Below, piece after piece: positions 6,186 through 47,499 of a stretch of DNA of 64,000 bases. Under the pieces are notes generated by a model. The model worked only from the letters and a program-made list of their open reading frames with translations, had not been told where the DNA came from and did not search any database. A program made the translations under genes and the position numbers. This stretch comes from Balanoglossus misakiensis (taxonomy: Eukaryota > Animalia > Hemichordata). Numbering within the stretch: position 1 is the first letter of the stretch; each line of letters opens with the position of its first letter. The stretch covers positions 3,694,760-3,758,759 of the forward strand of contig CM082576.2 in the NCBI GenBank assembly GCA_040954595.2. The letters are read 5' to 3'.

Positions 6186-11616
<5,431 letters not shown>

Positions 11617-18520: not shown

Positions 18521-19814
18521 TTAGTCCAGCGCCGTTGGTCCGCGATAAACTCTGGGTCGGAGGCACACGCATGCAACGGGCACCGCCTCATGGGTGAACT
18601 TGTACCTGAAGAGAACAAAGAAGCAAAATTAGGAAATACTGTATCTTAAAAGAGGTAACAAATCATGCTGCAAACGTCACTTCGGCCTACGAAATGTGAC
18701 AAAATGTTCTGTAGCACCAAGAGCCAAAGCAACATCGACAAAAGTGAATATCAGCCATTAAATGAAAGGAATTGTTGGAATCCGATATCAACGAAAGATG
18801 TCGCTCTACTTGTCGGAGAAGAGATGGTTGCAGAGCCCCAGTCGTGACAGTCGATTGACACTGTAGAAGTTAAGCGCTGCATAGGACTAATGAAATGTTC
18901 TCCTAAACGTACCTGTAATACCCGTCCTGATCGCAATCGGCGAGCCTCCTCAAAACGCGTACTCGGTAGGTGACTGGTTGGCAATAATTGTCGAGTGAGG
19001 GATTGTGCGATGTGACGTCGATGCAGTTTTGACAACGACACGCGGCAACAGCCATCACTCGTGGAAATCGATCGGGATCGCTGTCTAATTTGAAAGTCCA
19101 CGGGCAAAGTGACCTTTCGCTGATGTCTTCATCCAGAGTGTTGGCCAACTCCAGCGGACACGTAAGATTGGTCGTCACCTTTGCCGTCGGATAGGCGTCG
19201 ATGTTGCCGAATGCCGAATTATTTGACGACCCCGGGCTGTCGTTCAGCGGGTATACAAAAATCGGCGAGTTTTTGTAGCTACCGTCCTTCTGCATGAATT
19301 TGTTGTGGAGCAGTTCTTCCGTTGGCTCCAGACAAGGTGCGGCCCTGACTCCGTTCGCATTTTCGGTTTTCCCGCTCAAACTCTCTTCGGCGAAGCTGCC
19401 TGCCTCGAGTCTTCCCATTTGTGCCGGCTGTGGTCCCAAGTGTGATTGGATGATTCTGACCCCGTCCGAATTCGATCTCTCGTTTGGTAAGATTGGGGTC
19501 GCCCGTGCGCAGTTAAGATAAAACGAAACGAGAGCGATGGATACCAGCAAACGTGTCAACAGCTGAAAAGCGTGCAAAAAAGTCGGTTATTTATACGCAT
19601 TGCAACAAGTGCATGCTGTCTTCAAACTAATTGCGGAAAAACACGATTTACAAAATTCAGATCGGATTAAAGGTGTTTCATTTCAGAGATAGAAGAGGGG
19701 GGAGGGAGGGAGGGAGACACAGAGACATAAATACAAAGACTCTCATACATTTGTTGAGCTACAGTCTGAACGAAAATAATTCGTTGGTGCAGAGTTTATA
19801 CATACCTTATTCAT
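18521..19814 (-). CDS. IL17: Interleukin-17 family cytokine
   Basis: Exons 19814-19806 (MNK), 19562-18913, 18605-18521. Signal peptide LLTRLLVSIALVSFYLNCARA; IL-17 cystine-knot signature RSLCPW..DSDPDRFP..A.CRC..C..CQPV..VLRR..C..Y..VPVACVC. Confidence 0.95.
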
Positions 19815-20920: not shown

Positions 20921-21157
20921 GGTATGCTGGCAGGTACAACAGACGAACGCACGTTCAACCAATACGGACATGAACGGGAACGGTGACTCTGTACCCTGAG
21001 CAACACGCGATCACCAGAAGAACGCTTGCAGAAGAATGGAACCCCCAGATCTTGAAGCACCGGCCTTTTATATGCTTCAATCGCGGTGTCAAAAGCTGAT
21101 TGGCGTAATCAATGTCACCCGGCAGATGCAGCACTTGTAACATGTTAATATCCCGCT
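20921..21157 (-). repeat. Dispersed promoter-like repeat, copy 1 (CCAAT, TATAAAAG, Inr-like)
   Basis: Homologous to 47055-47279; shared blocks include GGCAGGTACAACAGACGAACGCACG, CCTTTTATATG, AAGCTGATTGGCGTA and AACATGTTAATA. Confidence 0.8.
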
Positions 21158-21541
21158 AAAATACCTACTCCAACTTGTAAACACCATGTGCCTGTATCTA
21201 CAATATGTAAATTAACCAAATAAATCATATCGTGACAGCATTTGAGAGCGATGATTTTTAATGCAAGGAAAAAACTTTAGATATTACACAAGTTTAATTA
21301 TAGTATCGGCACTACAATATGCAAAGTACAAATAACCGATTGCATTAAACAAACGTATAAATAAAAAAATGTGAAGGAAGTGTCATCACTATTCTGTCGG
21401 AGATATCGTTGACACTACAGCGAGGTATTTATTTCAGAAAATAAAATGGTAAAAGCACCCGAAGTAAAGGGTAAATAACATCATATTGTAAATGCACAGA
21501 CAATTGCAACTAAATAAAACGAGTCGAGTATAATCGTCCAT

Positions 21542-22725
21542 CTACCGGAGACACATCTGGCACTGCGGCGGGGTAGGGAACCGCGGGACACCTGCAAAGC
21601 CGTTGCCGTACCGCGGTAAACTACACACGACACCGGAATGGAAAGGAAGTGGTGCGGACGGCATGGTCTGTGGAATTTGAGAGAAGCCGATAAAGTCACA
21701 CGACCAATTCAGATCATAACAGGGTTCGATGCGATGGGGTAGTGGTTGCGTCAGTGGTGGTGGCGATGAAACGTGGGATTTCTGGAACATGCATGGCTTG
21801 CCGGGAAACACAAAAACTCGTGATGTCCTCGGAGGATCATCGTTGAGCTCTGTGTCACTGTCTGTGGATGATGATGAACTGTCGATGCTGAGGGGAAGAG
21901 GAATACCGGAACTGCTTGCCTTCTGGTCGTACCCACGCCTTGCCCGTCGTCGTTGGCGGGCACGTGTGTTGCGAAACCAACACTGTAAATTGAAAGACGA
22001 GAGCAATGTCAGAGAGGCGAATTTGACTTGATCAGTTACATGTACTTCTTTAAAAAATGTATTGTCCGAGTTGGGAATTTCTGATTGAAAGAGTACATGG
22101 TTTTCGCTGTAGCTATGAAACAGAAATAAACCGACGTACCAAAAGAAGTCCATAATCACTCTTTACATGCAAATCGCAATAAAACGAAGGTATAACTCAT
22201 ACTGCAAACACACACAGACGGATTACATCGACAGAGTATCAATTGCCTACCTGGACTTGTCTGGTACTCAAATTAAGTATCTCAGCGGTCCTCTTGACTA
22301 GGGGTACGGTTGGGTACCTGGTGTACCCTTCATAAATCGCCAACAGTGCATTCACTTGGGCTTGCGTGAATGCTGGACGACAAACGCGTGGCAATGCAGC
22401 TTCAGTATTTCTGGCGTAACGGTGCTTGTTGGTCATCTCCCCACTGTCTGTAGAAGGTGCGACTGTGTTAAAATAAATGACATTACTGATTAATTTTCCT
22501 GAGGGGAGAGGACATAGCCATTGCATGTGCTGTTAATACTGGCGACGCCGGAGCAGAAACAAGGCTCTCCTACGCCGATTTCTTCAAAGTACGAACGGTC
22601 AGCTCTCAATCAACTCTCAATTACTAGTATTGGAAATGCTTACCTTTCTTTGGCGATGACACCGTGAGATCTATCACTACGGGACTTGTAACTTCAGAGC
22701 GGTTGGACGCGGATCTTTCTGGCAT
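21542..22725 (-). CDS. Divergent PRD-like homeobox gene 1
   Basis: Exons 22725-22644 (MPERS..PVVIDLT..KK), 22447-22251 (FTQAQVNALLAIYEGYTRYPTVPLVKRTAEILNLSTRQVQ), 21982-21542 (CWFRNTRARQRR...). The intron lies between homeodomain codons 46 and 47. TATAAA at 22816-22821 and CACGTG at 22838-22843 upstream. Confidence 0.9.
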
Positions 22726-23329
22726 GATGATGGACTGACTTACAGATACTGCGACGATGTTGATCTCACGATAGACGTTGATCGAATGCGTGTCGATCAG
22801 GATCTGGTGTCTGAATTTATAGAGCTACGCTTCTTTTCACGTGACCGTCAACTTTTGTTCAAAAGAAACTTTTGAAATTAAACAAAGCGATGCCGCCGCA
22901 ACGGCGTGATTGACAAATTATGTTCATTGGGTGCGCCACCTTTCGGGCTCTTTCCCAGAAACTTGCACCTGAAACAAAAGATGTTGCAGCGACAACAGCG
23001 TGATTGACACAGGTCACGAGTGACTATCTGCCTTTCCTTCAAGAAACCTGCACAACGTACGGCGAGACACAACTTCACAAAATACCGCTTGAGGAAATTT
23101 GTGTAAAGCGTTTTCCGACACGTGATGTTCGTGTCCAAATTTCCTGAAAGTCAGGGCGCTTCGGTTAACTTTTTCATGAATGTTGATTTAAAATTTAGTC
23201 ACAACTAATTAATTTTATTTTGAGAACTGACAAAGTGGGTCAGTTAGTCTGTCGATGGCATGCATCTTTAAACAGATTTTAGGAATTCTCGCGCGAAGAG
23301 TCCGTGGCGTGACCATATTACAGGTGTAA

Positions 23330-23500
23330 CTTTGAACAAAGAAATTTGCGGCCGCATGTCCTTTGATCACCCGCCCTCCACTTCAAGACGGTGTGCGCGG
23401 GGCGGGCGGCGCGTTCAAGGAAAACGGTAAATTGACATGTTTGTCAGGGCATAGTGCAGGTGATGTGACAAACTTCTCACACTTTCGATTTTGTGACAAT
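23330..23500 (-). promoter_or_regulatory. Putative enhancer module upstream of homeobox 1 (TCF sites)
   Basis: CTTTGAA at 23330-23336 and CCTTTGATC at 23360-23368; block CCCTGACAAACATGTCAAT (minus strand) has close matches in 32890-33090 and 33490-33680. Confidence 0.55.
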
Positions 23501-24290
23501 GAGTAGGAACCAAGAAAACCACAAAAGGCAACACGGCCCTGTTTGATCCGCCATTGTCTGTACCGACCAAAAACAGGTGTGTCAGTTATGAAGAATGAGA
23601 AAGTGTTTGGCGGTGACGAAAGGATTTGGACAACGATATACGGCAATCAGGTGTGTGAGTTATGAAGAAGGAAAAAGTGGACCTGCTTTTACATTAAACG
23701 CGCAAATGATATGTTTGTAGTTGCGCATTTACATGACATCTTTAAATTGAAGTGATCGAATGTCTGTGAGACTTGTTCACCAGAGTGTCGACAGCAACGT
23801 TATTGACATCGTGGGATCTATCAATGCAGGACGCCGTACTCTAATGCCAGCATATAGGTTGGCGATGTGACAGAGTTAGTTAGAGAACACAGACGCCGTT
23901 TAGTCTTTTCCAGCATCGCAGTTGCATGTTTGACATGCTTTCGTTAGTACACTGTTTATCGCCTTTCCCCACAACCTGCCTGCCAAAACATGATCGAAGA
24001 CATCTCCCATGCCGGTAGTTTTGATTAAAGAACACCTTGACACGTTTTTCAACTTTTTTGTTGTGCTGTGTAGACAGGCCAGCCAAATGTGGGCGAAATG
24101 ATATTTGTGACGAGTTTCAAGACGGTAAGTAAAATAAATTATAATGCAAAACTCGACAAATTCAAAACAATATATACGTTTATTTCACTGAGAAATACTT
24201 AGTACACATAAAATAGAACAATCTTTATGAAAAACATTATACAAAGCGGATAAAACTTAGTGTATATACAAAGCAACTGCTAAGACTGGG

Positions 24291-25419
24291 CTAAAAACGA
24301 TCACATGCGACGTGGCTAAAGGTGACTGGATGGACGGAGCTCAGATCACTGCTGGACAGTGGGTGTGTTATAAACCGCCCGCTGTACTGAATAGCCGGAT
24401 GACAACAGTGACTATTCGGGAAAAGTGGCGAAAACTGGGATCTGGTGGAGACAGGTGGACCATCTGCTGGGCGGCTGGTGGAGTAGTGAGGCGCTGGGGA
24501 TGCGAACCTACACGGGTTGCCGGGAAACTTGAAAGTTGATTGGGGATGCGCAGGTTGGGATGGCGTTGAGTGTGGCAGAGGGACAGAGTCAGCTGATGAC
24601 GGGCGTGTGATGGGTAGGTCAGCTGATGTTGTCTCGAATCGCTGCCTGTGTCTTAGTAGCTCACGTTGCTTACGAGCGCGGCGATAACGTAACCATTCCT
24701 GTAGGAGTAAAAAAAATTGAGGTTAATTAACTGCGATATGAAACATCTCTTCAAAATACACATCAAAAGGGTTATTATCCTTTACAGATAAACTGAGTAA
24801 GAAAGGGATTATTACCATAATAGTGTCTTCTGGCAGTCCTGTCAAATCGGTCAGCAATTCTCGGAGTATCAGAGGGGGATGCTCTGATTGTCTGGTGACC
24901 GCTTCGTCCAATGTCGTCGACTGGCTGGCGGTGACAGGAACGGCGTGGCGGCTTCTTCGTTGCACATCGCGGTGGTACGGCCTGCATCGACTTCCAATGC
25001 GTCGTCTTCGTGGTGTAACTATGGAAATAAAGAAACGAGATGCATTAGAGTATATACAGATCCGATAGTAGCTCATATTCGGGGAGAACCCATAACAAAT
25101 TAGTTGTAGATTAATCCATTCCAAAATCAGCCGACAGTGATATAGATGGCATGGCAATCTTACCTTTCTTCTGTATTGAGCTTTTCGCAAAGGAATCGCC
25201 GGGGTCCTCGGCTGATTCTCTTGGATCGGTGACTGGCGGCGCGTCCCTCGACTCTGAAACTGTCGCATCACTGCCGCTAGATGGCGAACGGTGGTTCTCC
25301 TTTCGCTGACCTCTGCTGAACAGCTCCGGTACCAAACTCACCAGGGGATTATTCTGCGAGAAGCGCTCAGGGTAATAGTAGACTTCTAAAGCGCTGATCA
25401 TCTTGTAACCTGCTTCCAT
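24291..25419 (-). CDS. Highly degenerate homeobox paralog 2
   Basis: Exons 25419-25164 (..KK G), 25018-24816 (VTASQSTTLDEAVTRQSEHPPLILRELLTDLTGLPEDTIM), 24698-24291 (EWLRYRRARKQRE...FKFPGNPCRF...). Same intron phases as the paralogs, the shared FPG(N/K)PC motif, and an open frame throughout. Confidence 0.78.
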
Positions 25420-27061
25420 GCTGATGTTGTCGTTGTCAAGTCAGGACAGAGACTGGTACTGCAGGGGATTCCGACCCCCCCATTTTATGCTCATCCTCAC
25501 TTTCATCTCTCCGTCAAGAGAGTCTTCTTCTTTGTTTACGAGCGAAGGTGGTTATTATGGTGATAAGGCTCCACTGAGGAGAGTTGCCGACTGCAGTCGA
25601 TTCCTTCGCGACAATAGACAACGGAGAAGGCGGTGACACCTATCGGCATCCATTGAATAATTAATTTGGAGAACAATAGAATGGCGGTACCGCCACTCAG
25701 TAACAATGACATTACTATTTCAAGGCGGTGACACCAATTATTTGACAAAACACGATTTGAACCATTTTGCGATAATTGTCAGCGGGTAAACTTTTCTTCT
25801 GAGAACCCGTAAAAGCTATACGAACTCTATGAACTGTGTTGTAAGCGCCGCGTCCGTTGTCCGCTTCAAAACGCTCGCGTTCAACAAAACACCTGTTGAG
25901 TAGTACAACAACATAACATCATGATAACAATTTAATTCTTTACGTCGAATCGCAGGATGTGTACTTTGCATTGATTTATGCGCATTCACTGTAATGCGTT
26001 TGTTATCAGAAATAATACTTTATGAAGTGCGACATATATATTTGTCTGGTTGATACTTGCGTCACTATCTATTTCCGTTAGACTATCAAAATGTGATCCA
26101 CTGTTGTCGGATTAAGATGAATAGACGTAACCGTTATATATCTTTGTTTATTCAAGCAACGCGTGACTGCATGCGCATGACCATTTGCGAGCGACAGACT
26201 CTGCGTACAAGCGGTTTTTGCCGTCGTGGTGCAAAGTCTTTATGTTGAAATAAAGATATTTAGAATACATGTACATGTATATGAAACCAATCTGCTGAGT
26301 GTTGCTGTTCCTCTGCTATCTGGCCCGTCAAATGCAAACCAAGTCGGTTACTGGGTTACTGTACGTATGGTAGCGTTTGTATGAATGAAGGAAAATTTTA
26401 TTGTGTGTGGTAAATGTTCAAGTTTTAGAACTGTGTAAGACAAAGGCAATTGTGGAATCGACCGTACGGAATGTAAACATTTACACCTGGTGGTTTGATG
26501 GTATTTATAGCTGTTTGAAATTAGTCGTTCAGTTGGAATCGATAATGGGTGAAATACTCAAATCAGTGCGAAACTTCTCCGTTCCGTATTCCGAGCTGTA
26601 AAACGGAAAGATATATTTTCGGGATCAGGCTTGCTCCAAACAACCTCTGTTGTATCTGGCTTTTCTGCCACCAATTTTAATTATCTGGATTGTGTTGACA
26701 CAACAAAATAAGTATTACTGAAACTTGAGACGGAAGAGGACCAAGTACAGACGAACTCAAAGACTCGTGGAGTCGCAAGTCTGTCAAAACATGTAACGCC
26801 TGTTCAAAACACTGCACTACTCTCATGACGTCAAATTCCACGAAATCATCAATTACCAATTTCTGACATGCGAAATATCACCCAATTCTTGCTACGGATA
26901 ATTTGTTCAGCGTAACAGGAAGTCTGATTGGTGTTGCTTGAAACAGCCTTGACCAATGATCGCGTTTTGCGAGCGACTACAGGGTATATATAGGCGTCGT
27001 GTTCTGATAAATGCAACGAGGACCAGTAACTGCTGGACCCAAGCTGAGATCTGTCGACTCC

Positions 27062-28652
27062 ATGACGCTGATGATGATGATGAAATCTCGGGTTCTGCTC
27101 GTCGTCGCTTGCCTGTACTGGTTGTACACAGGGTAAGTGGCATACTCGGCCAACAGTCAAATTTAAATACAAGGATAGACTCTTCCTCACAGAATTTTTT
27201 TGTACAAGCTGGGTTCGTTTCAACAACCCATGCAGTTGCGCATCATGGGATACAGCAAAAGATAATTACGCAATTATTTCTATTATTTGCTTCTCATATC
27301 TTGTTTGCGTTGGTCAAAGGACACGCCGTGTGGCCAGCAATAACACTGCGCGAAGAGGTTGCCCGGCTGTTAGCGGACTAGTATTATAATGTAGTGGTGA
27401 AAGAGGTGGTTTGGGATGAGATGTTGTTCGTAGACTGTGTTTATTCCTCTGTCAGCTGTGTTATGGTCTACACTCACTCCTTTATCACACCTGGTGTGGT
27501 TGGGTGGAGAGGGGAGGTTTGGAGGGTTCTGTGAGTTCTATCCAAATACATGTGCAGTGACATTACCAACCGCACCGTATGTCGTATGCTTTTACTGCTT
27601 TAATATCTAAGGCGATGTTGACTGACTGCTTGATCCCCTTGATACGTCAATACAAGTTGATCTTATTGCATAGTAGTAACACATAGACCAGAACTGAAAT
27701 GACCATAGCAGACATGGTGTATAGTCAACTTGATTCAGAGCTTCAGAAACAGGCGAACACATATAGGGCCTACGTTCACCAGCTACAGATGTCTAAGCTA
27801 ATACCCACCCCTCCCCATCACTGTCCCACCCCTCCCCACCTTTCTCATTGAACCATACATAGTTCCTCTGACAAAACACTGCGTCGGAGAGTCCCCGCAC
27901 CTGGTCAAAGCAACGCGACGGAACAAGGTGGGAAATCACACGTTTATATGTGCATAACATTAGCGCACAATAGCCCCGTTATTGCGCGACGGACGGGTCG
28001 CCTTTGATTGCTAAGATTGATTCTGAAGCCTGTACCTGTGATTGTTGTTGTTTTTGTCCTGTGATTTTGTACGACAAAAACCGTACCATGCGGCACGTAT
28101 AAACGTTGCTATGCATGCACGTTTGCCAGATGGTTTGGGGTTTGTCACAAAATGAAATACGTCATAGGTAGAACAGAAATTCGACAATGGGCTAAGTGTG
28201 CAAATTGCTTGAACATACTGTGGAGGCATTTGGGCAGCCGGTGCAAAATCATGAATTCTTTCGCAATATGCAATTAATTAACTACATTCTAGGGATGAAA
28301 ACTATTGGGCAAAAAGGAAAGAAAGAATTTACAAGTTATGTACAAGATTTTTGAAATCTTTTTTTTTCTCGCTGACAGTGCCGCTGGTTGTCGAGAGGTT
28401 ATAAGGAACGTGACACAGTCGGAACAAGTTACCGAAAGATGTGGACCTCATGATTTGAGACGATGCATTCGTTATCGGTAATGCGTTATTATTTTTCTGA
28501 TATTTCATTCAATAATAGTGACTCGTTCTTTTATCACTATATCATTGATGTTTACGCTGACACACTGATGAAAATGTTGTGACGAGCGATTTTACGCCAG
28601 AGTTAACTCTCTGCTCGATATAAATTAAGTCGTTGATTGATGTTCACTAATC

Positions 28653-28724
<72 letters not shown>

Positions 28725-30506
28725 GACACTGTATCTCACAGGCCGATTATTAAACCTATCAAACAGTACGTTGACTGTATTCCAGGTATGCCTCATTAAT
28801 CAAAACGTCCTAAGGTCTAAGGTGGTGGTAGTAGTGGTGGTATTATAATTAGTAGATTTCAAGAAAAAAAATATTCACGACGTCCAAACATTTTTTACCA
28901 AAATTGAAACGCTGGTCTATCTTATTATTACGAAGGAAACATAACAAGAAACGGCCAGATCAAGATGATCTCCTAGACTGAGCGCATTGCCTATGACCCT
29001 TCGAAGGCAGTGCACCGGACCGCCCAAGTCCAGTTGATCTCCTTGCCAAAACAGCACATCAGACCAAACACGATTACGTGTAAACACGAGTACTTTGTAC
29101 AATGCGCGAAGTGTTTTAGTTGTTTCATACACTTTCAGCTGTGTCGAAAGTAATGTAATACTTTACACTGACAGAATGCAATGGTCAATGGACACAGTTC
29201 TTCGACCGAGACAACCCAAGTGTAACAGGAGACTGGGAGACCCTAGACTCTTTGCAGGCAGCGTACCCGGGTCAAATATGTGACAACCCGTCAGCGATAT
29301 ACGCCGAAACTACCGACGGCGTGCCGGCCGAGCTGACGGGAGAAACGTTTGCAGCGTATGACGTACAAACTGGCTTCGTCTGCGTCAAGAATCAGCAACC
29401 TGACGGCGTCTGTCTGGACTACAGGGTAAAGTTCTGCTGTCGAGGTAAGGTGGAAGTTTCAAGTAACGGATTTCGAGACAAGATACAACGCGCATGCAAA
29501 ACTAATTATCGTTTACTCAGTGCAGAATACATAGCTCAAAACTAGCATCAGATAGCATCAAGAGCGCTAAACTTATAAGTACATTTGAATCTCAAATAAA
29601 GGCGGTAGCTGACCTTTGAGGAACATTTAAAAATTGGTAACCATACTCTATTATAGACAGTAGTAATAATTATGCGTGCTGGGTTCTTTGTGTGTTCTAC
29701 TATACTAGATTGCGATGGAATGATGACCCAATTTTTCGACCGAGACGACCCTTCTGGTTTTGCGGATGCAGAAACTCTGCAACATTTGAGGCCTGAGAAT
29801 CCGGGCAAAATTTGTGAAAAACCAACGGCGATTTATGCCGAGACGCTGGCTGGCGTACCGGCAGAATCAACTGGGGAGATATTTTCACCCTACAATCCAG
29901 TGAGTGGGTTTGGCTGTCATAACAGCCACCAACCCGATGGTCAGTGCATGGATTACAGAGTTCGCTTTTGTTGTCCAGGTAAGCATTAGCGTTATTCTGG
30001 TTACCGTGGAACAACAGCGCCATCTGTGTGGGAAACATGGAGAAAGTCGGTGTCTTGTCGGCCTGACAATATATGCCACATTATAGTGGACTTCTTGCCA
30101 AATCCGGCAACTTCGATTGTAACTTCTATTACCAATGGTGATCAGAATGCAGAGTAAGGCTAAACGGTGAAATACCTTTTCTTTTCTCACAGCTAAAAGC
30201 TGCACACACTGGACACCGTGGTATGACAGGGACAACCCGTCTGGCACCGGTGACTGGGAGACTCTCAGTGACCTGCGCGAGCAATATCCGAACCAAATTT
30301 GCCGAGACCCAACCGGACTACAGGTGCGCGTCAAGCTTACCGGACAGATCGTGTCTCCCAGCGACGGCAATTTCTATCGCTTCGATACACAGTCTGGTTT
30401 CGTCTGTCGCCTCGTCGACCAGAGCTGTAAGGACTATGAAGTCCGTTTCTGTTGTCCGCGGTTTACTTCTGGTGTCCTTTCTGAGGCGGACTACCTTAAA
30501 GTTTAG
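27062..30506 (+). CDS. Secreted protein with three mucin WxxW/CysD domains (CILP/mucin-like) and a short Cys-containing N-terminal module
   Basis: CCAAT at 26953 and TATATATA at 26985. Exons 27062-27132 (signal peptide), 28379-28477, 28742-28785, 29175-29444, 29709-29978, 30193-30506. Each domain reads WT.(W/F)(F/Y)DRD.PS..(G/A)D.ETL..L..P..IC..P..GF.C..C.DY.V(K/R)FCC (first W replaced by M in domain 2). Phases are consistent (2,2,1,1,1). Confidence 0.85.
28655..28721. repeat. (CT)n microsatellite
   Basis: Pure CT run. Confidence 0.99.
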
Positions 30507-30926
30507 ACAATGTCATGTATCAGTCCGCATGGACTTTCAGAAATAAAGTTACATGCTTTGTCGCCATACAGCATGCCTAATAATAAAATTAGATGATTGC
30601 ATGTACTACAGAAAATGGTCTGTTGTAAGTATTGTGTTATCCCATGGTCACTCCGACAAATCCAAACATGTCGTTCCATAAATGTGCACGCGAATACATA
30701 GATACATACATATACACCGTCATCCACTCGCACGACTCATTGACAAACACAAGCTCATACATCATGCCTAAACACCGACAAAATAGCTCCCGTACTTTCA
30801 TATAAATTTATTTCAGGTAAAAATAGCAAATAAATAAATAAATAATTAAATAAACAACCAAACAAAACATCAAGGAAAAAAACTCCAAAGCGAAAAAGCG
30901 GGTACAATCGTCCTCGGCTACTGGCG

Positions 30927-32002
30927 TCATAGGTAACACTGCGGGGGTCTGGTGGACTGAGACACATCTGCATAACAGCTGTCGTACCTCGGTAAACTAC
31001 ACGCGTGGCCAGAATGGAAAGGAAGCGGTGCGAACGGCGTGGTCTGTGGAATTTGAGAGAAGCCGATAAAGTCACATGACCAATTCAGATCGTAACAGGG
31101 TTCGGTGTGATGGCAGAATGGTGGTGGTGGCGATGAAACAGGTGTCTGGAACATGCAAGGGTTGCCGGGAAAAACAAAAGACGTCGGTGGTGATGGACTC
31201 GGCGAAGATGGCGTGGAAGGAACATCGGAGAGTGCGGAATCGCTGTCTGTGGAGGATAAGCATGATGAACTATCGGTGTAGAGGGGATGATGATGATGAT
31301 CGGAACCGTCTTTCTTCTCGACATACCCTCGTCTGGCACGCCGCCGTTGCCTAGTACGGTTGTTACGAAACCAGCACTGTAAAAAGAAAAGACAAAACGG
31401 AATTCGTGAATCTACTTGACAGATGAGAATTTATGATAGACAAAAACAGGACGTTTGATCTCGAGATGCAATTTAACAATGCATGGGGAAGGTCGAAACC
31501 ATTCACACACACGTCGATGTTTCGTGAATATGGGTTTCGTGTTAACCCAGACAAGATAGCTCACTGCACTTCTTTTCTTACCTGGACTTGTCTAGCCGTC
31601 AAATCAAGTAACTCAGCGGTCCTCTTGACTTGGGATGGGGTTGGATACCTAGTGTACTTTTTATAAACCTCCAACAGTGCAGTCACTTGAACTTTAGTGA
31701 ACTGCCGAGCGCTCGTCGGTTTGACCGCCGCAGGCCTGGTGTATCGAAGCTTGTTTGTCATCTTCATTCCACCGTCTGTAAAGAAATAAGATACGATTAT
31801 TGCAAACCACTTGGCATTCCTATCGATTTGCTTCTAAGTCGGAAAATAGTGGAGTAAAGTGAACTCAATAATAATGCATGTTCTTACCTTTCTTCGGTGA
31901 TGTTGCCGTGAGGTCGATCAGTACGGGACTTGTTGATCTTCTCGCTGTTGACAAGTCTAATGGACTCGGCAAGTCAGACGATGCGGATCTCTCTGGGATC
32001 AT
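30927..32002 (-). CDS. Divergent PRD-like homeobox gene 3
   Basis: Exons 32002-31888 (MIPERSASSDLPSPLDLS..PVLIDLT..KK), 31775-31582 (FTKVQVTALLEVYKKYTRYPTPSQVKRTAELLDLTARQVQ), 31376-30927 (CWFRNNRTRQRR...). Confidence 0.9.
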
Positions 32003-35000
32003 TCTGGATAAGCGCGGTGGAATAGTGTTGAAGTAACGATCGACGTTTATCGAATGTGGTGATCAGTCTCTGGTGCCGCATTTTAAAGGACTAGGCCTCC
32101 GTTCACGTGATCGTCAACTTTTGTTCAAAACTCTTGTAGTTTTCACAAAGCGTTGCCGAGACAACGGCGTCATTTACACGTCACGATTGTCGGACTGTTG
32201 GCCTTTCGGTCCCTTGTCCAGAAACTTGAACAGCGGCAAGTTCACAAAAGACACCTGAAACATTCACAGTTCGTTGGTCTTTGTCATGGCGGAAACCACG
32301 CGACAGAGTCAAATCTTTTATAAAAGACAATTCTGATAGTTTTTATTGTTTCGATAACATGTTGAATTCTTTCATTCGGTGATCTTTCATCTTAAAACTC
32401 AGTTGCCTGTTTGTGTTCGTTTCCATGGTTAAAACGTTTTAACGTAATCTATGCTCTCATCCAAACCATCATCATGATCATCATCATCATCATCATCACC
32501 GCCGCCATCGCCATCACTCAACTGTCGTCGTCCTCGTGTTAATAGCCAATTTTTAATAAACAAATGTGATCTTCTTCCGAATGTCATGACGTTTGATTAA
32601 CTTTTGGAAACATTTCTTGCTGTTTTTGGCTTTAAAACATCATGGTCCCGACCCTGCTTTGTACAGTAATTGCTTTGGTCCCGTTGTTTCAACTCGTAAT
32701 ACATGTATACTAGTATATGGAGCACGCAGTTTTTTCACTGATTTAGTAGCACTGTTTAGTGCTTTTAATTATTCTGAATTGGCTGTGGCAAAACGATAGT
32801 TCCTATGGATTTTGGACACGCTAGTTATGATCACACAAAAGAAAGTCGTTTCATCTTCTACGGTGTTTGTTCATTGCCATTCTCACAGTCGAACGTTTGA
32901 TAAGCTTGTCATGTCAACTATACCCCGACAAACATGTTAAAGTGTCGTTTGATCACGTGTAACGCGCCGTCCTGAACGCGAACATGCCGCCATGAACTCC
33001 CGAAGATGTGATCAAAGGCGCAATGCGAACTTGTCAATCACGTCTCTTTTGTTCAGACCCATTACATGTATTTACCGAAAATACCGACACGCGACGACCA
33101 TCTGACCAGGACAATAGAATAATGGGGAATACCCCAACCACATAGCTTATTCCTGATCACCGTAATTACCACAATCAATGCTGGCTTGTGATAACTTTTT
33201 ATACGACCTTATAAGTTTGTCTAAACTTGCCATAGATACTTTGAATATTTGTTTCATCACAAGGACATATCCAAAAGTCGCGTCAACTGAGAACACGGGT
33301 AATAGAATAGCTAATACAACTCATTATCCCAATTATGGGAGTCAGTTCGACTGTTTATTTTCGGGCAATCTATTGGTTGTCCTTTTCCAAAACATGCCAA
33401 CATTCTGTCTAAACAGCAGGCGGTCAAAACGAAAGTCTGTTATCTTCATTGTTCATCTCCATTCTCACACGTACTCCTGGTCGCTTCGTACAATCGAAAG
33501 TGTTTGATCTGTTGTACTCTACCCTGATAAACATGTCAATGTCCCGTCTCCTTTGTAACAAGTCGTTCCGCGCACGCGACTACGAACTCACGGCAAGGCG
33601 ATCAAAGGCGGTGCGTCCAACAATAGAACCTTGTCAATCACGTCGCTTTTTGTCCCAGTACCGAAAACACCGACACGTGATGAGCTAGTGTTCCAAAACT
33701 ATCCACTGTCCCGTTTTTTAAATCTATCAAGTAAACGACGTTATGTTCAGGATGTAGGGCCCATTATTCCAATCCACTTCGAAATACAAATCTGCAAAAT
33801 TTGCCAAAATACAAATCTTCCAAAAGAACCTGTCTCACATCAAAGGACAGAGAGTATCAAAGGCGGTACCAAAGTATTACCGCAACAATGCGCACACGCC
33901 CCGTCAAACAAAAGACACAACAGAGAAGTGTAAGTAAAAAATAAGGTGCCAACAAGTTTCTTTGATCAAAACTTGAAGCGACACCAGTGGCATTTGGTGG
34001 AAAGGCGGCGGAGAATAATTAAGTTTGTCAAACAATTAGGAGACCGAACGAACCCCAGGTGCGAGTTATCAAGTAATTGTCTTGGGGCGGGATGGTACAG
34101 TATTACCTCTACATGTAATTTCAAAACACATCCACGTGAACTTGGTAAAAAAAATGGACAAAAAAACCCAGAATGTGTACAAGAGAAGATTATAAAGTAA
34201 AGTCGGATGAGTCCTATCCTATCATTATCTAATAATATAAACATAAGCCAAAAGATTCGAAAGTTTGAAAGTTCATGAATGCGTCGCACATTTGGATGAA
34301 AACAAGACTAGGAGAAAATGTTTGATGAAGTGTGGACCATGATAACGATGATGGAATATAAGTACTAGAGTTCCCACGTGGTCAGACATTGTGGAAACAG
34401 ACCTTGTAGAATTCTGGAATCGAAAAAACTAACAGTCTCGCATGTTGACAGTATTCTACCGGGGATCAAAACAATTGAATCTGAATTAGCTTTCGTTTTC
34501 TCTGTTTTCAACGATTCGGCGTTTGCCGCAATGATCACGTCATGACCAAGGCCAACAAACTGTGAATGTTTCAGGTGTTTCTGGACAAGGGACCGAAAGG
34601 CCAACAACCCGACAATCGTGACGTGTAAATGACGCCGTTGTCTCGGCAACGCTTTGTTAAAACACCAAGAGTTTTGAACAAAAGTTGACGATCACGTGAA
34701 CGGAGGCCCAGTCCTTTAAATTGCGGCACCAGAGACTGGTCACCACATTCGATAAACGTCGATCGTTACTTCAACACTATTCCACCGCGCTTATCCAGAA
34801 TGATCCCAGAGAGATCCGCATCGTCTGACTTGCCGAGTCCATTAGACTTGTCAACAGCGAGAAGGTCAACAAGTCCCGTACTCATCGACCTCACGGCAAC
34901 ATCGCCGAAGAAAGGTAAGCACATGCGTTATTATTGAGTCCACTTTGCTTTTTACTCTACTATTTTTCAACTTAGAAGCAAATCGATAGGAATGCCAAGT

Positions 35001-35652
35001 GGTTAGCAATAATCGTATCTTATTTCTTTACAGACGGTGGAATGAAGATGACAAACAAGCTTCGATACACCAGGCCTGCGGCGGTCAAACCGACGAACGC
35101 TCGGCAGTTCACTAAAGTTCAAGTGACTGTACTGTTGGAGGTTTATAAAAAGTACACCATGTATCCAACCCAATCCCAAGCCAAGAGGACCGCTGAGTTA
35201 CTTGATTTAACAGCTAGACAAGTCCAGGTAAGAAATGAAGTGCAGTGAGCTATCTTGTCTGGGTTAACACGAAACCCACATTCACGAAACATCGACGTGT
35301 GTGTGAATGGTTTCGACCTTCCCCATGCTTTGCGTTAAATCGCATCTGGAGATCAAAAGTCCTGTAAATTCTCATCTGTCAAGTAGATTCACGAATTTCA
35401 TTTTGTCTTTTCATTTTACAGTGCTGGTTTCGTAACTATCGCGCTAGGCAACGACGACGTGCCAGACGTGGGTACGGCGAGAAGAAAGACGGTTCCGGTC
35501 ATGCTCATCCCCTCTACACCGATAGTTCATCATGCTCATCCTCCACAGACAGCGATTCCGCACTCTCCGATGTTCCTTCCACGCCATCTTCGCCGAGTCC
35601 ATCACCACCGACGTCTTTTGTGTTTCCCGGCAACCCTTGCATGTTCCAGACA
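31143..35652. repeat. Large inverted repeat: arms ~31143-32288 and ~34541-35652, spacer ~2.25 kb
   Basis: Promoter, exons and both introns of homeobox 3 and 4 are near-identical reverse complements with small indels. Confidence 0.92.
32890..33970 (+). promoter_or_regulatory. Two diverged direct copies of an enhancer-like module plus extra TCF sites in the inverted-repeat spacer
   Basis: GATCAAAGG at 33010 and 33600, each followed by TTGTCAATCACG (33031, 33631); ATCAAAGG at 33839 and 33856; CTTTGATC at 33960. Confidence 0.6.
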
Positions 35653-35865
35653 TCATCTGTTTCGCCGCAACGACACTTCTATTCCACGGAGCCCTCCTAC
35701 GAGCTGAGTTGGTCGTGTGGCAATTTACCCGTCCCGCAGATCATCGAACGCGCACCGGTTCATCTCCATTCCGGCGTCTCGTGTAGCCTACCAAGGTACG
35801 GCAACGGCTTTGCAGATGCCTCACAGTTCCCCAGCCCGCCGCAGTATCAACGATGGCTCCCTTAG
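34800..35865 (+). CDS. Divergent PRD-like homeobox gene 4
   Basis: Exons 34800-34914 (PLDLS, VLIDLT), 35034-35227 (FTKVQVTVLLEVYKKYTMYPTQSQAKRTAELLDLTARQVQ), 35422-35865 (CWFRNYRARQRR...). Confidence 0.9.
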
Positions 35866-36732
35866 CACATCAGAAACACTACACACATGATAAGTTTGCA
35901 GTCGTCATCTGTAACTTTTGCTTTTGAGAATAATGTATATATTTAAAAATTGTATGTTTTTATGATTCATTGTAATATACTTCGCTGTATCTGTATTAAA
36001 CTTTTAAATGAATGAAAACTATTGTTGTCGCTAGTATTGCAAATATTATGTATGTATATGTGTGTGTGTGTTTATGTCCTCAATTTGTTGAACCTCGTCA
36101 TAATAAAACGAATGTTGCAGGCGGCCCGACCTCAAAACCTATTTTTATTGTTTTCGTTTGCGATCACAACATTTACAGAGATGATGACGAATCGTCCACA
36201 CTAACAAAACTACTGTACAATCAAAATGTGATAGATAAAAGTCGCTAACTGCTTGGGTGACTACTGAATACATGTAGTCGGCTTCTGGTCTTGAGCAGCT
36301 ACTGTGCACCATTCCCCGTGATCTCGCGAGATATCTCGTGATCGAACCGACTCGAGGAACGGAGAAATCTAAACCCAGCAGTGGACGTGGACGAAGCACA
36401 GCTTCTATACGGACTAGGGGGCACTCCACAAACCAATTACTGACATAGATGATGTGATGTGTTCCTGTTGGATATGGGCCAATTTGAAGACAATTCAGAA
36501 GTGTAGTCACGCTTGCTTCACATCAGAACCTTCAGGCGATGAAGTGGCGAGACTTCAGCTACTTTGCAAAGATAAAGAAAGCGTGTCCCTTCATTCCTTT
36601 ATGTCAAAATGCTTTTAACTTCTTGATTACAATATTCTCACTTCAAAGGGTAGAATTGGAATCCTAACGCTGCCAATAAATGTTTTTTTCCTTCTAATTG
36701 ATAAGCAATATATTTCCAAAACAGTGCGACTT

Positions 36733-38136: not shown

Positions 38137-39053
38137 GTAAACGTAAACACAAGCATAAATCCCGTCCACGCAAAAAGTCAGTCATCCGTGGAGAATGTAA
38201 ATGCACAGTTTTGTCAAACGCATGAAAATGCAAGAGGTATCTTCGAGCTTTTTAGTTTACAATACGCAGCCTACCCGCTGAAAAGGCTCTGGTGAATTCG
38301 AAGGAAGATTGAAAACAAACGGGGATGGAGAGCGCCCTATGTGGTGACGACGCCGAAGCATATTGCACTCACCTCGATTCATCAATAATTACACTGACTT
38401 GGAACGACCCCAGCGATGTCTGCATCCGAGTGTGACTTTGAGAACAAAGGCTGCGTAAACATGTACAAATGTAGTATGTCTCAGGTAGCATGGGGAATAT
38501 TCAAATGATACAGTGCCGTGAATACTATATCAATTCATACAGCTAGCTAAGCTGGGCTTCAAGTACACCTTGTACTTTTAGGATACAAATCGAAGCTCTA
38601 AATGAAGGGAAAATAAATTCTTGTAATACGCAAGTGAAAACTTCCCTAGTTTTAGCAAAATACAAAAGGTGCTTCGCAAAACTTTGGAAACAATACATCG
38701 ACAATCCGCATATGACTACTTTCACGAACAGGTTCGGCCCAAGGTGGCGCTGTGCACGTATATCTATTCCGCCACCATGATGATTACAATGTACTGGTCA
38801 ACCATCTGTTGGGCAGAACAGGATAGTAGTATGGTATACCTGGTATGGTCTATTCATTGAAGAATGTTGACATGTTTAAGTAACAGGTGGCATTTCGGTG
38901 ACGTCATGTTTGTCATGATTTAGACAGCGAAAATAGGTCCATACCCCAAATGTACTATAATAGTGTAAATTGATCCTCACTTATCTGTCGAAAATGTGCC
39001 ATCTACATACATGAAGCAAAATTGCACGCATCTGTACACGCAGCACATTACGT

Positions 39054-42000
39054 TCAACTGTGTGTGGTGTCGGTGAAATCAAAACTCTCGGTGTCCAGCT
39101 GTTCGACCTCTTCAGCCAGACTCGTCTCTCCGATAACTTTGAGGGTGTTGACCATCTTGTCAACTTGCTGCTTGACAAAAGCGGGTGTTTGCCTCTGATC
39201 CTTCCATTTTTGCAACAGCTGCAAGAGCTTGTCTTTCTGCGGGACGCTTTCTTTTTGTCGATGGCCCTTACTTTCTCGCGGGGGATTCCCAGGTGCGGGG
39301 CCAGCTCCTTCCATCTTGCCGGGTCAAGTTTGGAGTTGATTATCTCCAGCGCTGAGGTCATAGCCCTTCCTGCAAGACATAACGAGAACAGAACTCGGTT
39401 GGACGGTTGTGTTGGACGTAGTATTGAAACGACCCACACGCGACACGTGCAATCCTACGCCTTCACATGCATACAAAATCAAAGATGGCTTCCTTTCCAA
39501 AGTGAGGCTGTCCCCTCCCAATGCTTCTGGGTGAGGGCGCAACACGTATAAGTTCAACCTGTCTCTACTTTCCAGATCCATTCTTTTGTCACAAAAGTTG
39601 CTGTTTGCTAAAATAATCATGTAACAATAAAATCGCACGTCGTTAAACAGAAAAGAGTACTGAAGTACTGTTATATATAAATGAAACATTTCTGCTGACA
39701 TTTTAATTCTCCGAAGAGAAAAAAAACTTTCACCAATGAAATGTCATACTCACGTGCAACAACATGAGCGGCTATCTCTGTAGAGAAGGAAAAGTGAAAT
39801 TAGCAATTAATTTATTAGCCCTTTCCTTGAAATGGTTCTTGATAGAAATCTTACGTAAACATTAGCTTTAAATCACAACAATTCATGTGATGACAAATTA
39901 TCGTACATGTATTTGTTACATGTAATGTTACACTTTGTTATCGTGTTCACAGTGGCCTGTGAACACATTACCTATGCATAAAGCAGTAAACCAGACGCAC
40001 CTTCTTTTCTGTGCTTGCACTCTTCGAAAATCGCCTTCATGTCGTCTGAATCCCTGGGAAATGGTTTCCAGTTATGTTGCACAGCATTTAACTGATGTCT
40101 GCACCCGACATCCTCCGGGCATATCACCTTGAAGGCGATGGAGTAGGTCAGGGAAGGCCAAGTACTTCGCATGCAGTCCCTGAGTTTTTGGACGAACTGT
40201 TCGTTGAGGACGCGATAGGTGCTCTCCATGTCAACCGACATGGTGGTCTTGATCGACAGTGACTTGGACGCCCCCTTGTGTTCAGAGACCACCATACTGA
40301 CACCGCTGAACGAGGCAAGGAAGCCATCTTTCCATTCCTCTCGCACGTTTGCGTGCACGGTGCAGACGAGCACACTCATGAGCCTGGACGGACAGAACCA
40401 CGGGAATTCCACCCGGGCTTCGAACAGCGGTACGAATTTCACGGGGACGCTCATCCCCTTCTGGAGGTATCCTGGGAACCGCAGCACCCTCGGTGACCGC
40501 TCGTCGGCGTTTATGCCTTCAGAGTGGAGAAAAGAACCTTCGTTTCCCTCGGGATCCACTTCATAGCAGATCTTGAACCCGGTCAGCACATCAAACACCA
40601 ACGACATCACATCAGGGTCCAGTTCTAAATGGCCCAGGACGCACTCTCGGATCACGTCTTCCGACAAGACCGCCTTGCTCTCAAACGTCTCATTCACAAT
40701 GGCGAACTTTGTACCTCGATAGCCCGGCGGAAAGCTGTTCGCGTCCAGGAAGTCTGAATGGCCCTTCTCAAAGATCGCCTGGAGGATATCTTTCAGGAAA
40801 TCCAAGTTATGGAAGACATAGTCTCTAAGGCTTGGTATCCAGTCGTAGTATTGCACGACACCGATTCGTTTCATGTATGCAATTACACCTTGAATGTCTC
40901 CCTCCTGTAGGCCAACACTCCTACCAATACCCTCAAATTCTGAAAGAGTGAGCCTTACTCTCTTGAGTTGATCATCATCATCCCTTGTTTCTAGCAGCTC
41001 TCTCTCAAGCTCCAACATCTTTTGTATGTTGGGCGTGCTCCCGTTCCTATCCAGAGATGTGGTGCTGGCGGGAAGGAGGCGTTTGTCCTTGTCCAGTAAC
41101 AGCTGACAAATCTTGTCCTTGCAAACCTTCATACCGTTCTTGGCCTTCCCAACAACAATCACTTCAGTTGGCGACGAAAATAGAAGCAGGTCTTTATGCT
41201 GACGCTGCTTCAGTTCACTGAATAACTTCTGTAGCTCTTTACTTATGTTGCTGCAGGTCTCCCTTACCTTCTCTGCGTCTAGTTTATGAGCATGCGTTCC
41301 GACTATGGTTACTATTATTTCCCCTCCAATGGAAACCACGACATCCTTGATCCACATTGCAATGCACGCCTGGAAACCTTCCGACGGATACCGCTGCAAG
41401 TTGACTGTGATGATGTATAGAGAATTTGCTGTGTAAAACAGTGGGTACACAGATTGCACACTGCCGCTTCCGCCGCAGTATGTTAGTTCCGCGTCGATGT
41501 TGTCCGTAACCGGCCATATCGCTCGGTCCATGAAAGCAACCGTGCCGCTTGATGTGTCAGATTCCCCGCCAGTGTTCATGGCTGCCTTAACACCATTTCC
41601 TGGATTTCTACCATTTGTGGTCACTGGTATGTCTTGCTGTGTGTTGCCAGATGCTGGTTCTTCATCTTTCCTTGAGGTTCCCTCACCACCGCTAACGACA
41701 ATCCTGTCTGAACTGGTAGTCACTTGATCAGGCTGTCCCTTTTCTCCTTGCCCTCCGGGATCTTCATTGTTATTGACCTCTGACCCACGCCCATCTTCAC
41801 TTCCAAGCCTCCCTGATTGCCTGTCACGCGATTTTTTGAGCCTTTTCATAAGCGTGGCCTTGCCAGCGCCTTTGGAACCAAGAAGAAATATTTTGCCCCT
41901 TGCAATGCTGCTAAGATGAGGCGATTCTCTCAACTTCCGCCTCATCTCTCCCAACTTTGTCGTCTTGACTGCATCAGGGACATCTCTCAGCAGGTTCCCG

Positions 42001-45476: not shown

Positions 45477-46533
45477 CTAAGAGGCTGGCGCGATACGAAT
45501 TACAAATACCACAAACAAAACTCCGGTAACGAGGGTTGTTCCGGCCAAGGTGTATGTCAAGAACGTAATCGTGTTGTTGCGTCGGCGTACAGTTTCCTTG
45601 CAAATCCTGCCGCAACCACTGAACAGGGGAACCGGTGTTTCCTGTCCTTCGCCGTCGTCGATGTCAACAATACCCACTATGTAGAGGAGGTAGGCAAGTA
45701 CGAGCTCTAACAAGATGCAGAGGCAGGAGAAAGCTATGGTAACTGGCCAGATGTCGAACGACTTGTAGGACGACGACGCTGTCCCGAAGACCACCAGGGA
45801 CACCAACAAACAGACGTGGGACGCGAACAGCCCGAAGTTCATGATACTTAAGGCGACTGTTTTCGAAGTGGCGTAGGCGCTGAATTCACCATACTGTAAG
45901 ACAGATCGAAGAATAATACGTGAGTTGTGATATTTGTTGTCAGAAATTAAAAGAGGGATCGGAACGTGTAGGGGTTTGGGCAGTACTTTTTACTTTTTTT
46001 AAAATACCGAAGGCCTCCCAAACGCACTTTTAAGTCACAATTCCGTATAGGTCAGTAATGTGTGTACCATTATCGATCAGTGTAGGTTTAATAAAAATAC
46101 TTGTCACGTTCCACCCGTCCCGCCTGTTCTAAAAACAATAATTATCACACACCTTGCGTGCAGGTTCCCCTTCACAAATCCAGTCTACTGATGGATCCAA
46201 TTTCTCCAAGGAAAACCCACCGCCGCTTTCTGGACCGACGAACGTGTTGTCGACACTTGACTTCAAGACGATCGTCTTCGGATCGAGACAAAACAGTTTG
46301 GCGAGAACGGAGCGTGTTAAGCGGGCTTCCGAAAGCCAAACCCGACCCCTGACTGTGTAAGCCCCGGCACCCATCATTCCGGCGATCGTCACACCATGAA
46401 TGTTCGGGTTCGCTTGGTGCTGTCGGCCTGACGACTCCTCGGCCATTTCTTGCAGCTCGCTCCGGTTCCGTGAGCCTCCCCGCGCTTTTCTCTTCTGGTC
46501 ACGTTCTGGTGAAACGCTTGCTGTCGCAGCCAT
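45477..46533 (-). CDS. Ninjurin-like protein 2 with N-terminal globular domain
   Basis: Exons 46533-46153 and 45893-45477; SAYATSKTVALSIMNFGLF motif, hydrophobic helices, RNN. Confidence 0.8.
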
Positions 46534-47279: not shown

Positions 47280-47499
47280 CAGCAAGTCACAGGAGAAAAT
47301 CAATTAATGTCAAATAACAATGACAGGGTTGTGACCTTTGGCAAGTTATCGAGGGTTCATACACGGGGACCAAGTACAAAATGATAAAAGGGGTTCGTTC
47401 GCGTAACACTTATATGAAAGGTTCGCTTGGTCCCTCTTTGAAATGATACATCAGACAGAAATGTTGTGATAAAATAGCATTTTCCCCTCTTTAGGTCTA

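What the first reader, a model, noticed from the sequence alone, without database searches (positions are those of the whole stretch)
21542..35865. Cluster of four lineage-specific PRD-like homeobox genes with a 61-aa homeodomain and Arg at position 50
Seen: four three-exon paralogs with the intron between codons 46 and 47, one extra residue between helices 1 and 2 (Y-xxxxx-YP), helix 3 QVQ/CWFRN (C47, R50) in three of them, and private C-terminal motifs FxFPG(N/K)PC (all four) plus EPxYxLxWSC and HSGxxCSLPRY (genes 1, 3, 4). Known: the 46/47 intron is typical of the PRD class; HOPX has the same one-residue insertion; residue 50 sets DNA specificity and is normally Q, K or S in PRD; fast-evolving PRD clusters (ETCHbox, siamois, dharma) act around zygotic genome activation. 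Inference: an undescribed early-embryonic homeobox family.
Basis: partly seen in the sequence, partly recalled or inferred. Interest (0 to 1): 0.72.

Follow-up and report, generated by a model that had tools for sequence, protein, structure and literature searches.

The report
Unnamed acorn-worm Arg50 homeobox cluster
Four intact homeobox genes here belong to a fast-evolving family also multiplied in the acorn worm Ptychodera flava; shared Wnt/TCF-type sites upstream and a conserved ERK-docking-like motif suggest they are likely signal-driven early-embryo regulators, but their expression is untested.

Summary
There are four intact three-exon homeobox genes with the 46/47 intron and a 61-residue homeodomain. 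Arg50 is present in all four, not three.

The family is not private to this genome. Ptychodera flava has 14 RefSeq proteins of it under inconsistent automatic names, and the two species' copies group apart (independent expansion or homogenisation). No other species was hit.

Two additions:
(1) Genes 1, 3 and 4 share a homologous upstream module with a TCF site. CCTTTGAT occurs 4 times between genes 3 and 4 (0.12 expected), alongside E-boxes.
(2) FxFP is invariant in 15 of 15 proteins, with Thr-Pro 9-12 residues upstream in 13, the layout of an ERK docking site.

Best reading: a PRD-derived acorn-worm family, likely switched on by beta-catenin/TCF and tuned by ERK, working like pmar1/phb or ETCHbox genes without meeting their membership features. 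Arg50 has precedents (ARGFX, CERS), and HOPX and CERS5 share the loop insertion. The parent gene is unresolved (Otx-like PRD, CERS, Hopx). Expression and DNA binding are untested.

The parts
21542..22725 (-). Gene 1, three coding exons, 239 aa; R5 kept, C47, R50, N51; VVIDLT near the N-terminus; FVFP at 21803-21814
24291..25419 (-). Gene 2, divergent member, 288 aa; R50 but L49 and Y51, so canonical DNA binding is predicted to be lost; FKFP at 24522-24533
   Evidence: exon 3 hit by P0001 at E 2.7e-7 within the window
30927..32002 (-). Gene 3, 252 aa; PLDLS and VLIDLT; FVFP at 31167-31178; 3' part of exon 3 is gene-1-like (mosaic)
34800..35865 (+). Gene 4, 250 aa; inverted, divergently oriented duplicate of gene 3 (96% identical over two arms of about 380 nt); FVFP at 35617-35628
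22790..22900 (-). Gene 1 proximal promoter, homologous to those of genes 3 and 4: CGCTTTGT, TTTTGAACAAAAG, TCACGTGA E-box, TATA-like box
   Evidence: motif names recalled
32056..32290 (-). Gene 3 proximal promoter
34512..34746 (+). Gene 4 proximal promoter
23330..23500 (-). Distal module upstream of gene 1: TGTGAGAA (23474), ACAAACA (23438), TCF-type GATCAAAGG (23361)
32860..33050 (+). Distal module copy A between genes 3 and 4: TGTGAGAA (32880), ACAAACA (32928), GATCAAAGG (33011)
33450..33650 (+). Distal module copy B: TGTGAGAA (33462), ATAAACA (33527), GATCAAAGG (33601)
33839..33966 (.). Three further TCF-type sites outside the duplicated modules (33839, 33856, 33960)

Best explanation
These are four intact paralogs of a homeobox family shared with the acorn worm Ptychodera flava, likely derived from a PRD-class gene, likely switched on by beta-catenin/TCF with an E-box factor in the early embryo, and predicted to be tuned by ERK phosphorylation. 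Step by step: (1, shown) tandem and inverted duplication with sequence exchange between copies gave four genes here and up to 13 loci in P. flava. (2, inferred from motifs) nuclear beta-catenin/TCF binds the conserved upstream module and gives a transient pulse. (3, predicted) G1, G3 and G4 bind DNA through W48-F49-N51-R53, with R50 favouring a GC-rich 3' flank as K50 does; the weak N-terminal arm (R5 in 1 of 15) suggests lower or altered affinity. (4, predicted) the N-terminal PLDLS and [VIT][IV]DLT motifs recruit CtBP or SUMO-linked co-repressors (motif identities recalled), so repression is more likely than activation. (5, predicted) FxFP docks active ERK, which phosphorylates the Thr-Pro just upstream. 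(6, predicted) G2, with Y51 and L49, acts as a non-DNA-binding modulator or is decaying.
For: Intact frames, shared intron phases and a polyadenylation-type hexamer after each stop. dN/dS 0.40-0.54 over 229-247 codons for the three pairs among G1, G3, G4 (Nei-Gojobori, no significance test). Family in P. flava: 1 real hit of 3 in the representative library, 6 of 22 candidates, 14 accessions on records of one length. G1/G3/G4 form a clade at 96/94 apart from 11 P. flava rows. R50 in 15 of 15, N51 and C47 in 13 of 15. Predicted three-helix fold, pLDDT 84-92 in the domain, matching solved homeodomains. CCTTTGAT: 4 in the 2.7-kb gene 3/4 spacer against 0.12 in shuffles, 0 of 1000 reaching it; 8 in the whole 64 kb, 5 of them upstream of G1, G3, G4. 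The distal module of G1 scores 109 and 85 against copies A and B, while 1938 random stretches reach at most 38. In an unbiased count TTTGATC ranks 2nd among 7-mers, also after dropping recent duplicates. FxFP in 15 of 15, Thr-Pro 9-12 residues upstream in 13 of 15; ERK F-sites are FxFP downstream of the phospho-acceptor (PMC4459106, passages). Beta-catenin specifies endomesoderm in a hemichordate (PMC5786327, passages).
Against: Time and place of expression rest on motifs alone. The E-box TCACGTG outranks TCF (rank 1 among 7-mers), and the plain core CTTTGAT ranks only 28-32. The module copies are paralogous, not independent, and 8 patterns were tried on 3 regions. G2 has no CTTTGAT within 1.5 kb upstream and shares no promoter block. 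In P. lividus most hbox12/pmar1 copies do not depend on beta-catenin (PMC5370098, passages), so TCF input need not hold across a family. PLDLS is only in G3 and G4; P. flava copies have QDLS or LDLS variants or lack the stretch. FxFP arises by chance in 3-10% of shuffled single tails, G1 has no Ser/Thr-Pro within 25 residues upstream of it and P0005 lacks the Thr-Pro, and the motif could be a transactivation or other binding motif. Class is not resolved by sequence: CERS5 scores highest (33.8 bits), then HHEX/PRH 32.2, CDX1 31.9, OTX2 30.9, ALX4 29.8, HOPX 21.2. dN/dS in the homeodomain itself is high (0.31-0.60).
Confidence: 0.45

Rival explanations
1. Same unnamed PRD-derived family, but active outside the early embryo (germ line, larva, regeneration or adult Wnt-active tissue), as Rhox clusters are.
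For: TCF and E-box sites do not fix a stage. Rhox genes are a tandem PRD cluster expressed in reproductive tissue (PMC2211742, passage). In P. flava homeobox genes as a class peak late (PMC11618098, passage).
Against: Divergently oriented tandem copies, species-specific clades and TCF sites repeat the pmar1/hbox12 pattern. Other fast-evolving PRD clusters (ETCHbox) are early (PMC4904359, passage).
Confidence: 0.25
2. Highly diverged hemichordate offshoot of the phb/pmar1 family, i.e. members of a named family.
For: A phb1-related sequence exists in Saccoglossus, and residue 50 varies in this family (Q in Pmar1, H in Pplx) (PMC4709884, passages). phb expanded to 13 copies in a brittle star (bioRxiv 2023.10.30.564762, passage).
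Against: Pmar1 has Q50 and two eh1 motifs and two exons; these genes have R50, no eh1 match and three coding exons. No echinoderm protein was hit, though the word search saw only 22 candidates.
Confidence: 0.13
3. Expanded Hopx derivatives that act as non-DNA-binding cofactors.
For: HOPX has the 46/47 intron and the one-residue loop insertion. Amphioxus Hopx has a similar loop. HOPX clusters rank first in the feature search at 0.85, a lead only.
Against: HOPX is homeodomain-only, 73 aa; these are 239-288 aa. N51 is kept in 13 of 15 and R53 in 15 of 15. Identity to amphioxus Hopx is the lowest of the candidates: 13 of 53 for P0009, 11 of 53 for G1 (counted by eye). HOPX scores 21-25 bits.
Confidence: 0.08
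4. A free-standing homeodomain derived from the ceramide-synthase (CERS) class.
For: CERS5 is the top solved match, gapless, sharing TKYPD, C47 and R50. Drosophila CERS has S5 and R50. Amphioxus Cers has the insertion and R50, with 18 of 57 identities to P0009, equal to Otx (by eye).
Against: No TLC or membrane domain. F8-T9, Y25, N51 and A54 are PRD-like and absent in amphioxus Cers. G1 is closer to Otx (23 of 57) than to Cers (15 of 57), by eye. CERS6 scores only 22 bits. Beetle Cers lacks the insertion. The 46/47 intron is typical of PRD.
Confidence: 0.05
5. Redundant duplicates drifting towards loss, or an assembly artefact.
For: dN/dS up to 0.68 in the gene 3/4 tail; G2 has lost N51; one P. 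flava copy has D51.
Against: All four frames and splice sites are intact. G3 and G4 differ at 7 of 61 homeodomain positions and are inverted, with a mosaic 3' end. The family persists in a second species with invariant motifs.
Confidence: 0.04

Closest known systems
pmar1/micro1/hbox12 and phb (echinoderm PRD-like clusters)
   Same: Tandem, often divergently oriented copies; species-specific clades; upstream TCF sites; sister-phylum context.
   Different: R50 not Q50, no eh1 match, 61-residue domain, three coding exons, invariant FxFP.
ARGFX / ETCHbox (eutherian CRX-derived genes)
   Same: R50 (by its name); fast-evolving PRD-class duplicates; 5'-biased gene conversion between inverted copies as in TPRX1/2, like G3/G4 here.
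   Different: ETCHbox genes are eutherian and CRX-derived; any likeness is convergent. An Otx parent for this family is only a weak lead.
HOPX
   Same: 46/47 intron and one-residue insertion between helices 1 and 2.
   Different: Long flanks with conserved motifs; N51 and R53 kept in most copies; low identity.
CERS-class homeodomain (CERS5)
   Same: Loop insertion, TKYPD, C47, R50, non-Arg residue 5; top score.
   Different: No TLC or membrane segments; PRD-like F8, N51, A54 and 46/47 intron.

Membership tests
PRD class (PRD-like, no paired domain) | Intron between homeodomain codons 46 and 47 | tested here: met
   All four genes; feature per PMC2211742 passage
PRD class (PRD-like, no paired domain) | Highest homeodomain similarity to PRD-class proteins | tested here: inconclusive
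   PRD tops exon-2 searches; CERS5, PRH and CDX top full-domain profiles by 1-3 bits
PRD class (PRD-like, no paired domain) | Groups with PRD class in a homeodomain tree | not testable with these tools
   No reference homeodomains were held as stored sequences
PRD class (PRD-like, no paired domain) | R5 and Q/K50 as usual residues | tested here: not met
   R5 in 1 of 15, R50 in 15 of 15; usual states from PMC4901127 Table 1; exceptions such as ARGFX and HOPX are still filed as PRD
Pmar1/Phb | Q50 (H50 in Pplx) | tested here: not met
   R50; residue 50 of Phb itself not seen
Pmar1/Phb | Two eh1 repression motifs (Pmar1) | tested here: not met
   No eh1 pattern match in G1-G4; Pplx lacks them too
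Pmar1/Phb | Two-exon gene | tested here: not met
   Three coding exons
Pmar1/Phb | Tandem copies with upstream TCF sites | tested here: met
Pmar1/Phb | Transient early vegetal expression; clade with phb1 | not testable with these tools
   No expression data or phb sequences obtained
Hopx | 61-residue homeodomain with 46/47 intron | tested here: met
Hopx | Homeodomain-only protein of about 73 aa | tested here: not met
   239-288 aa
Hopx | Loss of DNA binding | tested here: inconclusive
   N51 kept in 13 of 15, lost in G2; binding not assayed
CERS class | R50 and non-Arg residue 5 | tested here: met
CERS class | Homeodomain inside a multi-pass membrane protein with TLC domain | tested here: not met
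   No such Pfam hit on any exon scanned; model disordered outside the domain
CERS class | Shared intron positions in the homeobox | not tested
   CERS gene structures not available
ARGFX/ETCHbox | Eutherian genes descended from CRX | tested here: not met
   Only P. flava relatives found
ARGFX/ETCHbox | Otx-specific C-terminal domain | not tested
   Feature; no full-length Otx held for comparison

The most novel reading that the evidence does not exclude
Acorn worms independently evolved their own cluster of beta-catenin-triggered, ERK-gated Arg50 homeobox repressors from an Otx-like K50 gene. It would be the hemichordate counterpart of the sea-urchin pmar1 double-negative gate and a convergent twin of mammalian ARGFX, with gene 2 as a built-in non-DNA-binding antagonist.
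Probability: 0.2. Interest if true: 0.8.

Novelty: new member of a known kind. Interest (0 to 1): 0.58.

Why it matters
Beta-catenin specifies endomesoderm in hemichordates, and a paper on the echinoderm gate found no close pmar1 in the Saccoglossus genome. This cluster gives concrete candidates for a first zygotic tier in the sister phylum, testable in P. flava, which has staged transcriptomes and chromatin data. It would also add a case of fast-evolving PRD clusters being recruited repeatedly, with Arg50 reached independently, and a natural C47/R50 homeodomain whose binding site is unknown.

Tried and rejected
No genome is held for the window, so copy number elsewhere and synteny were not examined. 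Sequencing-run search for 30850-36050: no RNA holder was listed; this is no evidence either way. Word-based homolog searches with G4 exon 3 (0 of 139 candidates) and the exon-2 alignment against longer proteins (0 of 7482) found nothing, although P. flava relatives exist, so these blanks reflect low sensitivity. Two of the 3 profile hits (P0002, P0003) were rejected as repetitive or low-complexity. The feature search with full-length P0001 gave only generic hits at 0.85 or less. Foldseek gave homeodomains of all classes with E above 0.001 and does not resolve class. Three look-ups of earlier findings returned nothing. K50-type TAATCC and Sox ACAATRG sites are not enriched upstream. The TGTGAGAA site of G1 is not at the aligned position of those in copies A and B, so a Su(H) input is a weak lead. 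No eh1 or WRPW match. A published binding site for an R50 homeodomain was not found in PMC3460184 or PMC13530268 (passages) or in listing 84. A script to model the WxxW gene returned no model. P0013 (near-copy of P0012) and P0014 (apparently fused model) were left out of the tree and counts, leaving 15 rows.

Full report
1. Observation. The window holds four homeobox genes at the stated place: G1 (-, 22725-21542), G2 (-, 25419-24291), G3 (-, 32002-30927) and G4 (+, 34800-35865). Each has three coding exons, GT-AG introns, a phase-1 first intron and a phase-0 second intron between homeodomain codons 46 and 47. Exon 2 of G1, G3 and G4 passes the Pfam Homeodomain cut-off. G2 does not, but aligns to DUX4 with the same one-residue gap. 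Homeodomain identities are 54 of 61 (G3/G4), 38 and 36 of 61 (G1 against G3, G4) and 12-15 of 61 for G2. G2 also has R50, but with L49 and Y51.

2. Relatives. A profile of the four third exons run against 1.84 billion representatives gave 3 hits, one of them real: P0001, XP_070579179.1 of Ptychodera flava. Its homeodomain region retrieved 6 of 22 candidates, all P. flava. Cluster look-ups brought the total to 14 accessions, every one on a record of 41,862,543 bases and with near-consecutive numbers; one chromosomal cluster is inferred. Two accessions are isoforms of one gene and one looks like a fused model, so at most 13 loci. Their automatic names (Pax-6-like, SIX2-like, OTX1-like, PROP1-like, aristaless-like) disagree, so the family has no annotation name. 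G3 and G4 share 30-37 and 28-36 of 61 homeodomain residues with them. The window is therefore probably from another acorn worm (inference). No other species was hit, but the word search is insensitive.

3. Evolution. In a tree of 15 proteins (P0013 and P0014 left out), G1/G3/G4 form a clade at 96/94 apart from the P. flava rows, and G2 is a very long branch of unsure place. This fits separate expansions or homogenisation. dN/dS is 0.40-0.54 overall and 0.31-0.60 in the homeodomain. G3 and G4 are inverted and about 95% identical from promoter to mid-exon 3, but in one stretch of exon 3 G3 matches G1 at 82 of 90 bases and G4 at 50 of 78, a sign of gene conversion or recombination. TPRX1/2 show a similar 5'-biased conversion (PMC8208926, passages).

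4. Protein anatomy. R50 is in 15 of 15, C47 and N51 in 13 of 15, R53 in 15 of 15, R5 in 1 of 15. The predicted structure of P0001 has three helices (56-68, 75-85, 89-119) with pLDDT 84-92 and disordered flanks. Outside the homeodomain the clearest invariant motif is FxFP (15 of 15), with Thr-Pro 9-12 residues upstream in 13 of 15. ERK F-sites are FxFP lying downstream of the phospho-acceptor (PMC4459106, abstract and passages), so ERK docking is predicted. A single tail holds FxFP by chance in 3-10% of shuffles, so the case rests on conservation, including in the distant G2. The N-terminus has a [VIT][IV]DLT motif in 9 of 15 (three P. flava models begin at exon 2; G2, P0005 and P0008 lack it) and PLDLS in G3 and G4 only. 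I recall these as SUMO-interacting and CtBP-binding motifs; no call tested that. No eh1 match was found.

5. Upstream DNA. G1, G3 and G4 share a proximal promoter block with an E-box and a TATA-like box. They also share a distal module, one copy upstream of G1 and two between G3 and G4, whose alignment scores (109, 85) far exceed 1938 random stretches (maximum 38). GATCAAAGG is kept in all three copies; TCAAAG is the canonical TCF/LEF motif (PMC5370098, passage). CCTTTGAT occurs 8 times in 64 kb, 4 of them in the G3/G4 spacer (shuffle mean 0.12, 0 of 1000) and one upstream of G1 (57 of 1000); two of the four lie outside the duplicated module. An unbiased count puts the E-box TCACGTG first and TTTGATC second among 7-mers, with or without recent duplicates; the plain core CTTTGAT ranks 28-32. 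G2 lacks these blocks; one CCTTTGAT lies 2.6 kb upstream of it at 28001, inside the neighbouring gene.

6. Origin. The 46/47 intron, F8-T9, Y25-P26, N51 and A54 point to the PRD class. Sequence scores do not settle it: CERS5 is first in three searches, aligning without a gap and sharing TKYPD, C47 and R50, but leads OTX2 by only 3 bits, and CERS6 scores 22. By eye from a published alignment (PMC5322547 supplement), P0009 matches amphioxus Otx at 18, Gsc at 17 and Cers at 18 of 57 positions and Hopx at 13 of 53; G1 matches Otx at 23, Gsc at 19, Cers at 15 and Hopx at 11. OTX2 is the top match of G1 exon 2 at a non-significant E of 0.3. HOPX is first in a feature search at 0.85, a lead only. A K50 PRD parent such as Otx is my best guess.

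7. Mechanism. Most likely (0.45): beta-catenin/TCF with an E-box factor drives a transient embryonic pulse; G1, G3 and G4 bind DNA with an R50-shaped preference, repress through short N-terminal motifs and are modulated by ERK; G2 is a non-binding modulator or a decaying copy. Gene structure, family, duplication history and motif conservation are shown. Regulation, timing, binding site and repression are inferred or predicted. Rivals: non-embryonic function (0.25), diverged phb offshoot (0.13), Hopx-derived cofactors (0.08), CERS-derived domain (0.05), decay or artefact (0.04).

8. Known systems. It works, by inference, like pmar1/phb and ETCHbox clusters. It fails tested features of Pmar1 (Q50, eh1, two exons), Hopx (size), CERS (membrane domain) and ETCHbox (eutherian, CRX-derived). 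R50 has precedents in ARGFX, Drosophila CERS and an oyster orphan. Loop insertions have arisen several times (PMC4901127, passage).

9. Literature. Searches (listings and abstract starts) and term look-ups in two P. flava genomics papers (PMC11618098, PMC11175523; passages) showed no description of this family. All papers were seen as passages, plus one section; none was read whole. Yamazaki 2020 and the P. lividus genome paper are not held. One supplement of PMC11618098 was too large and its data tables were not among the files listed, the alignment figures of PMC4709884 gave no text, and one file of PMC5322547 was not searched. Any of these could name or place the family.

10. Verdict. A real and apparently unnamed acorn-worm homeobox family: a new member of a known kind, interest 0.58. 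It rises to about 0.8 if it proves to be a beta-catenin-triggered first-tier regulator.

Noticed in passing
window 27062-30506 (+): A gene with three Mucin2_WxxW domains and a likely signal-peptide exon sits between homeobox genes 2 and 3; a CCTTTGAT site lies in its first intron at 28001.
   Followed up: partly
window 9225-11616 and 14607-17336 (+): Two tandem ZU5 + Death-domain genes.
   Followed up: no
window about 18900-19590 (-): Interleukin-17 domain gene close downstream of homeobox gene 1.
   Followed up: no
window 39972-43895 and 49854-53198 (-): Two long open frames with LRR and weak COR matches (Roc in the first), a weak Death match at 38981-39454, and two weak Ninjurin-like frames at 45477-47925 between them: an immune-type duplicated block.
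   Followed up: no
window 1422-2090 (-) and 59118-61463 (-): A TPR exon resembling TTC8/BBS8 and a 781-codon low-complexity frame with an ETAA1-like acidic stretch (names recalled, not tested).
   Followed up: no
P0014 (XP_070579138.1): The RefSeq model appears to fuse the tail of one family copy (with D51) to a second whole copy.
   Followed up: partly
Amphioxus Hopx, amphioxus Cers, CERS5 and the P. flava members of this family all show a 61-residue domain with T-K-x-P-D in loop 1, whereas beetle Cers lacks the insertion; shared origin or convergence is open.
   Followed up: partly
3' of genes 1 and 3 (21150-21541, 30560-30926): Six and five ATTTA pentamers, possibly AU-rich instability elements fitting a transient mRNA; no control run.
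   Followed up: no
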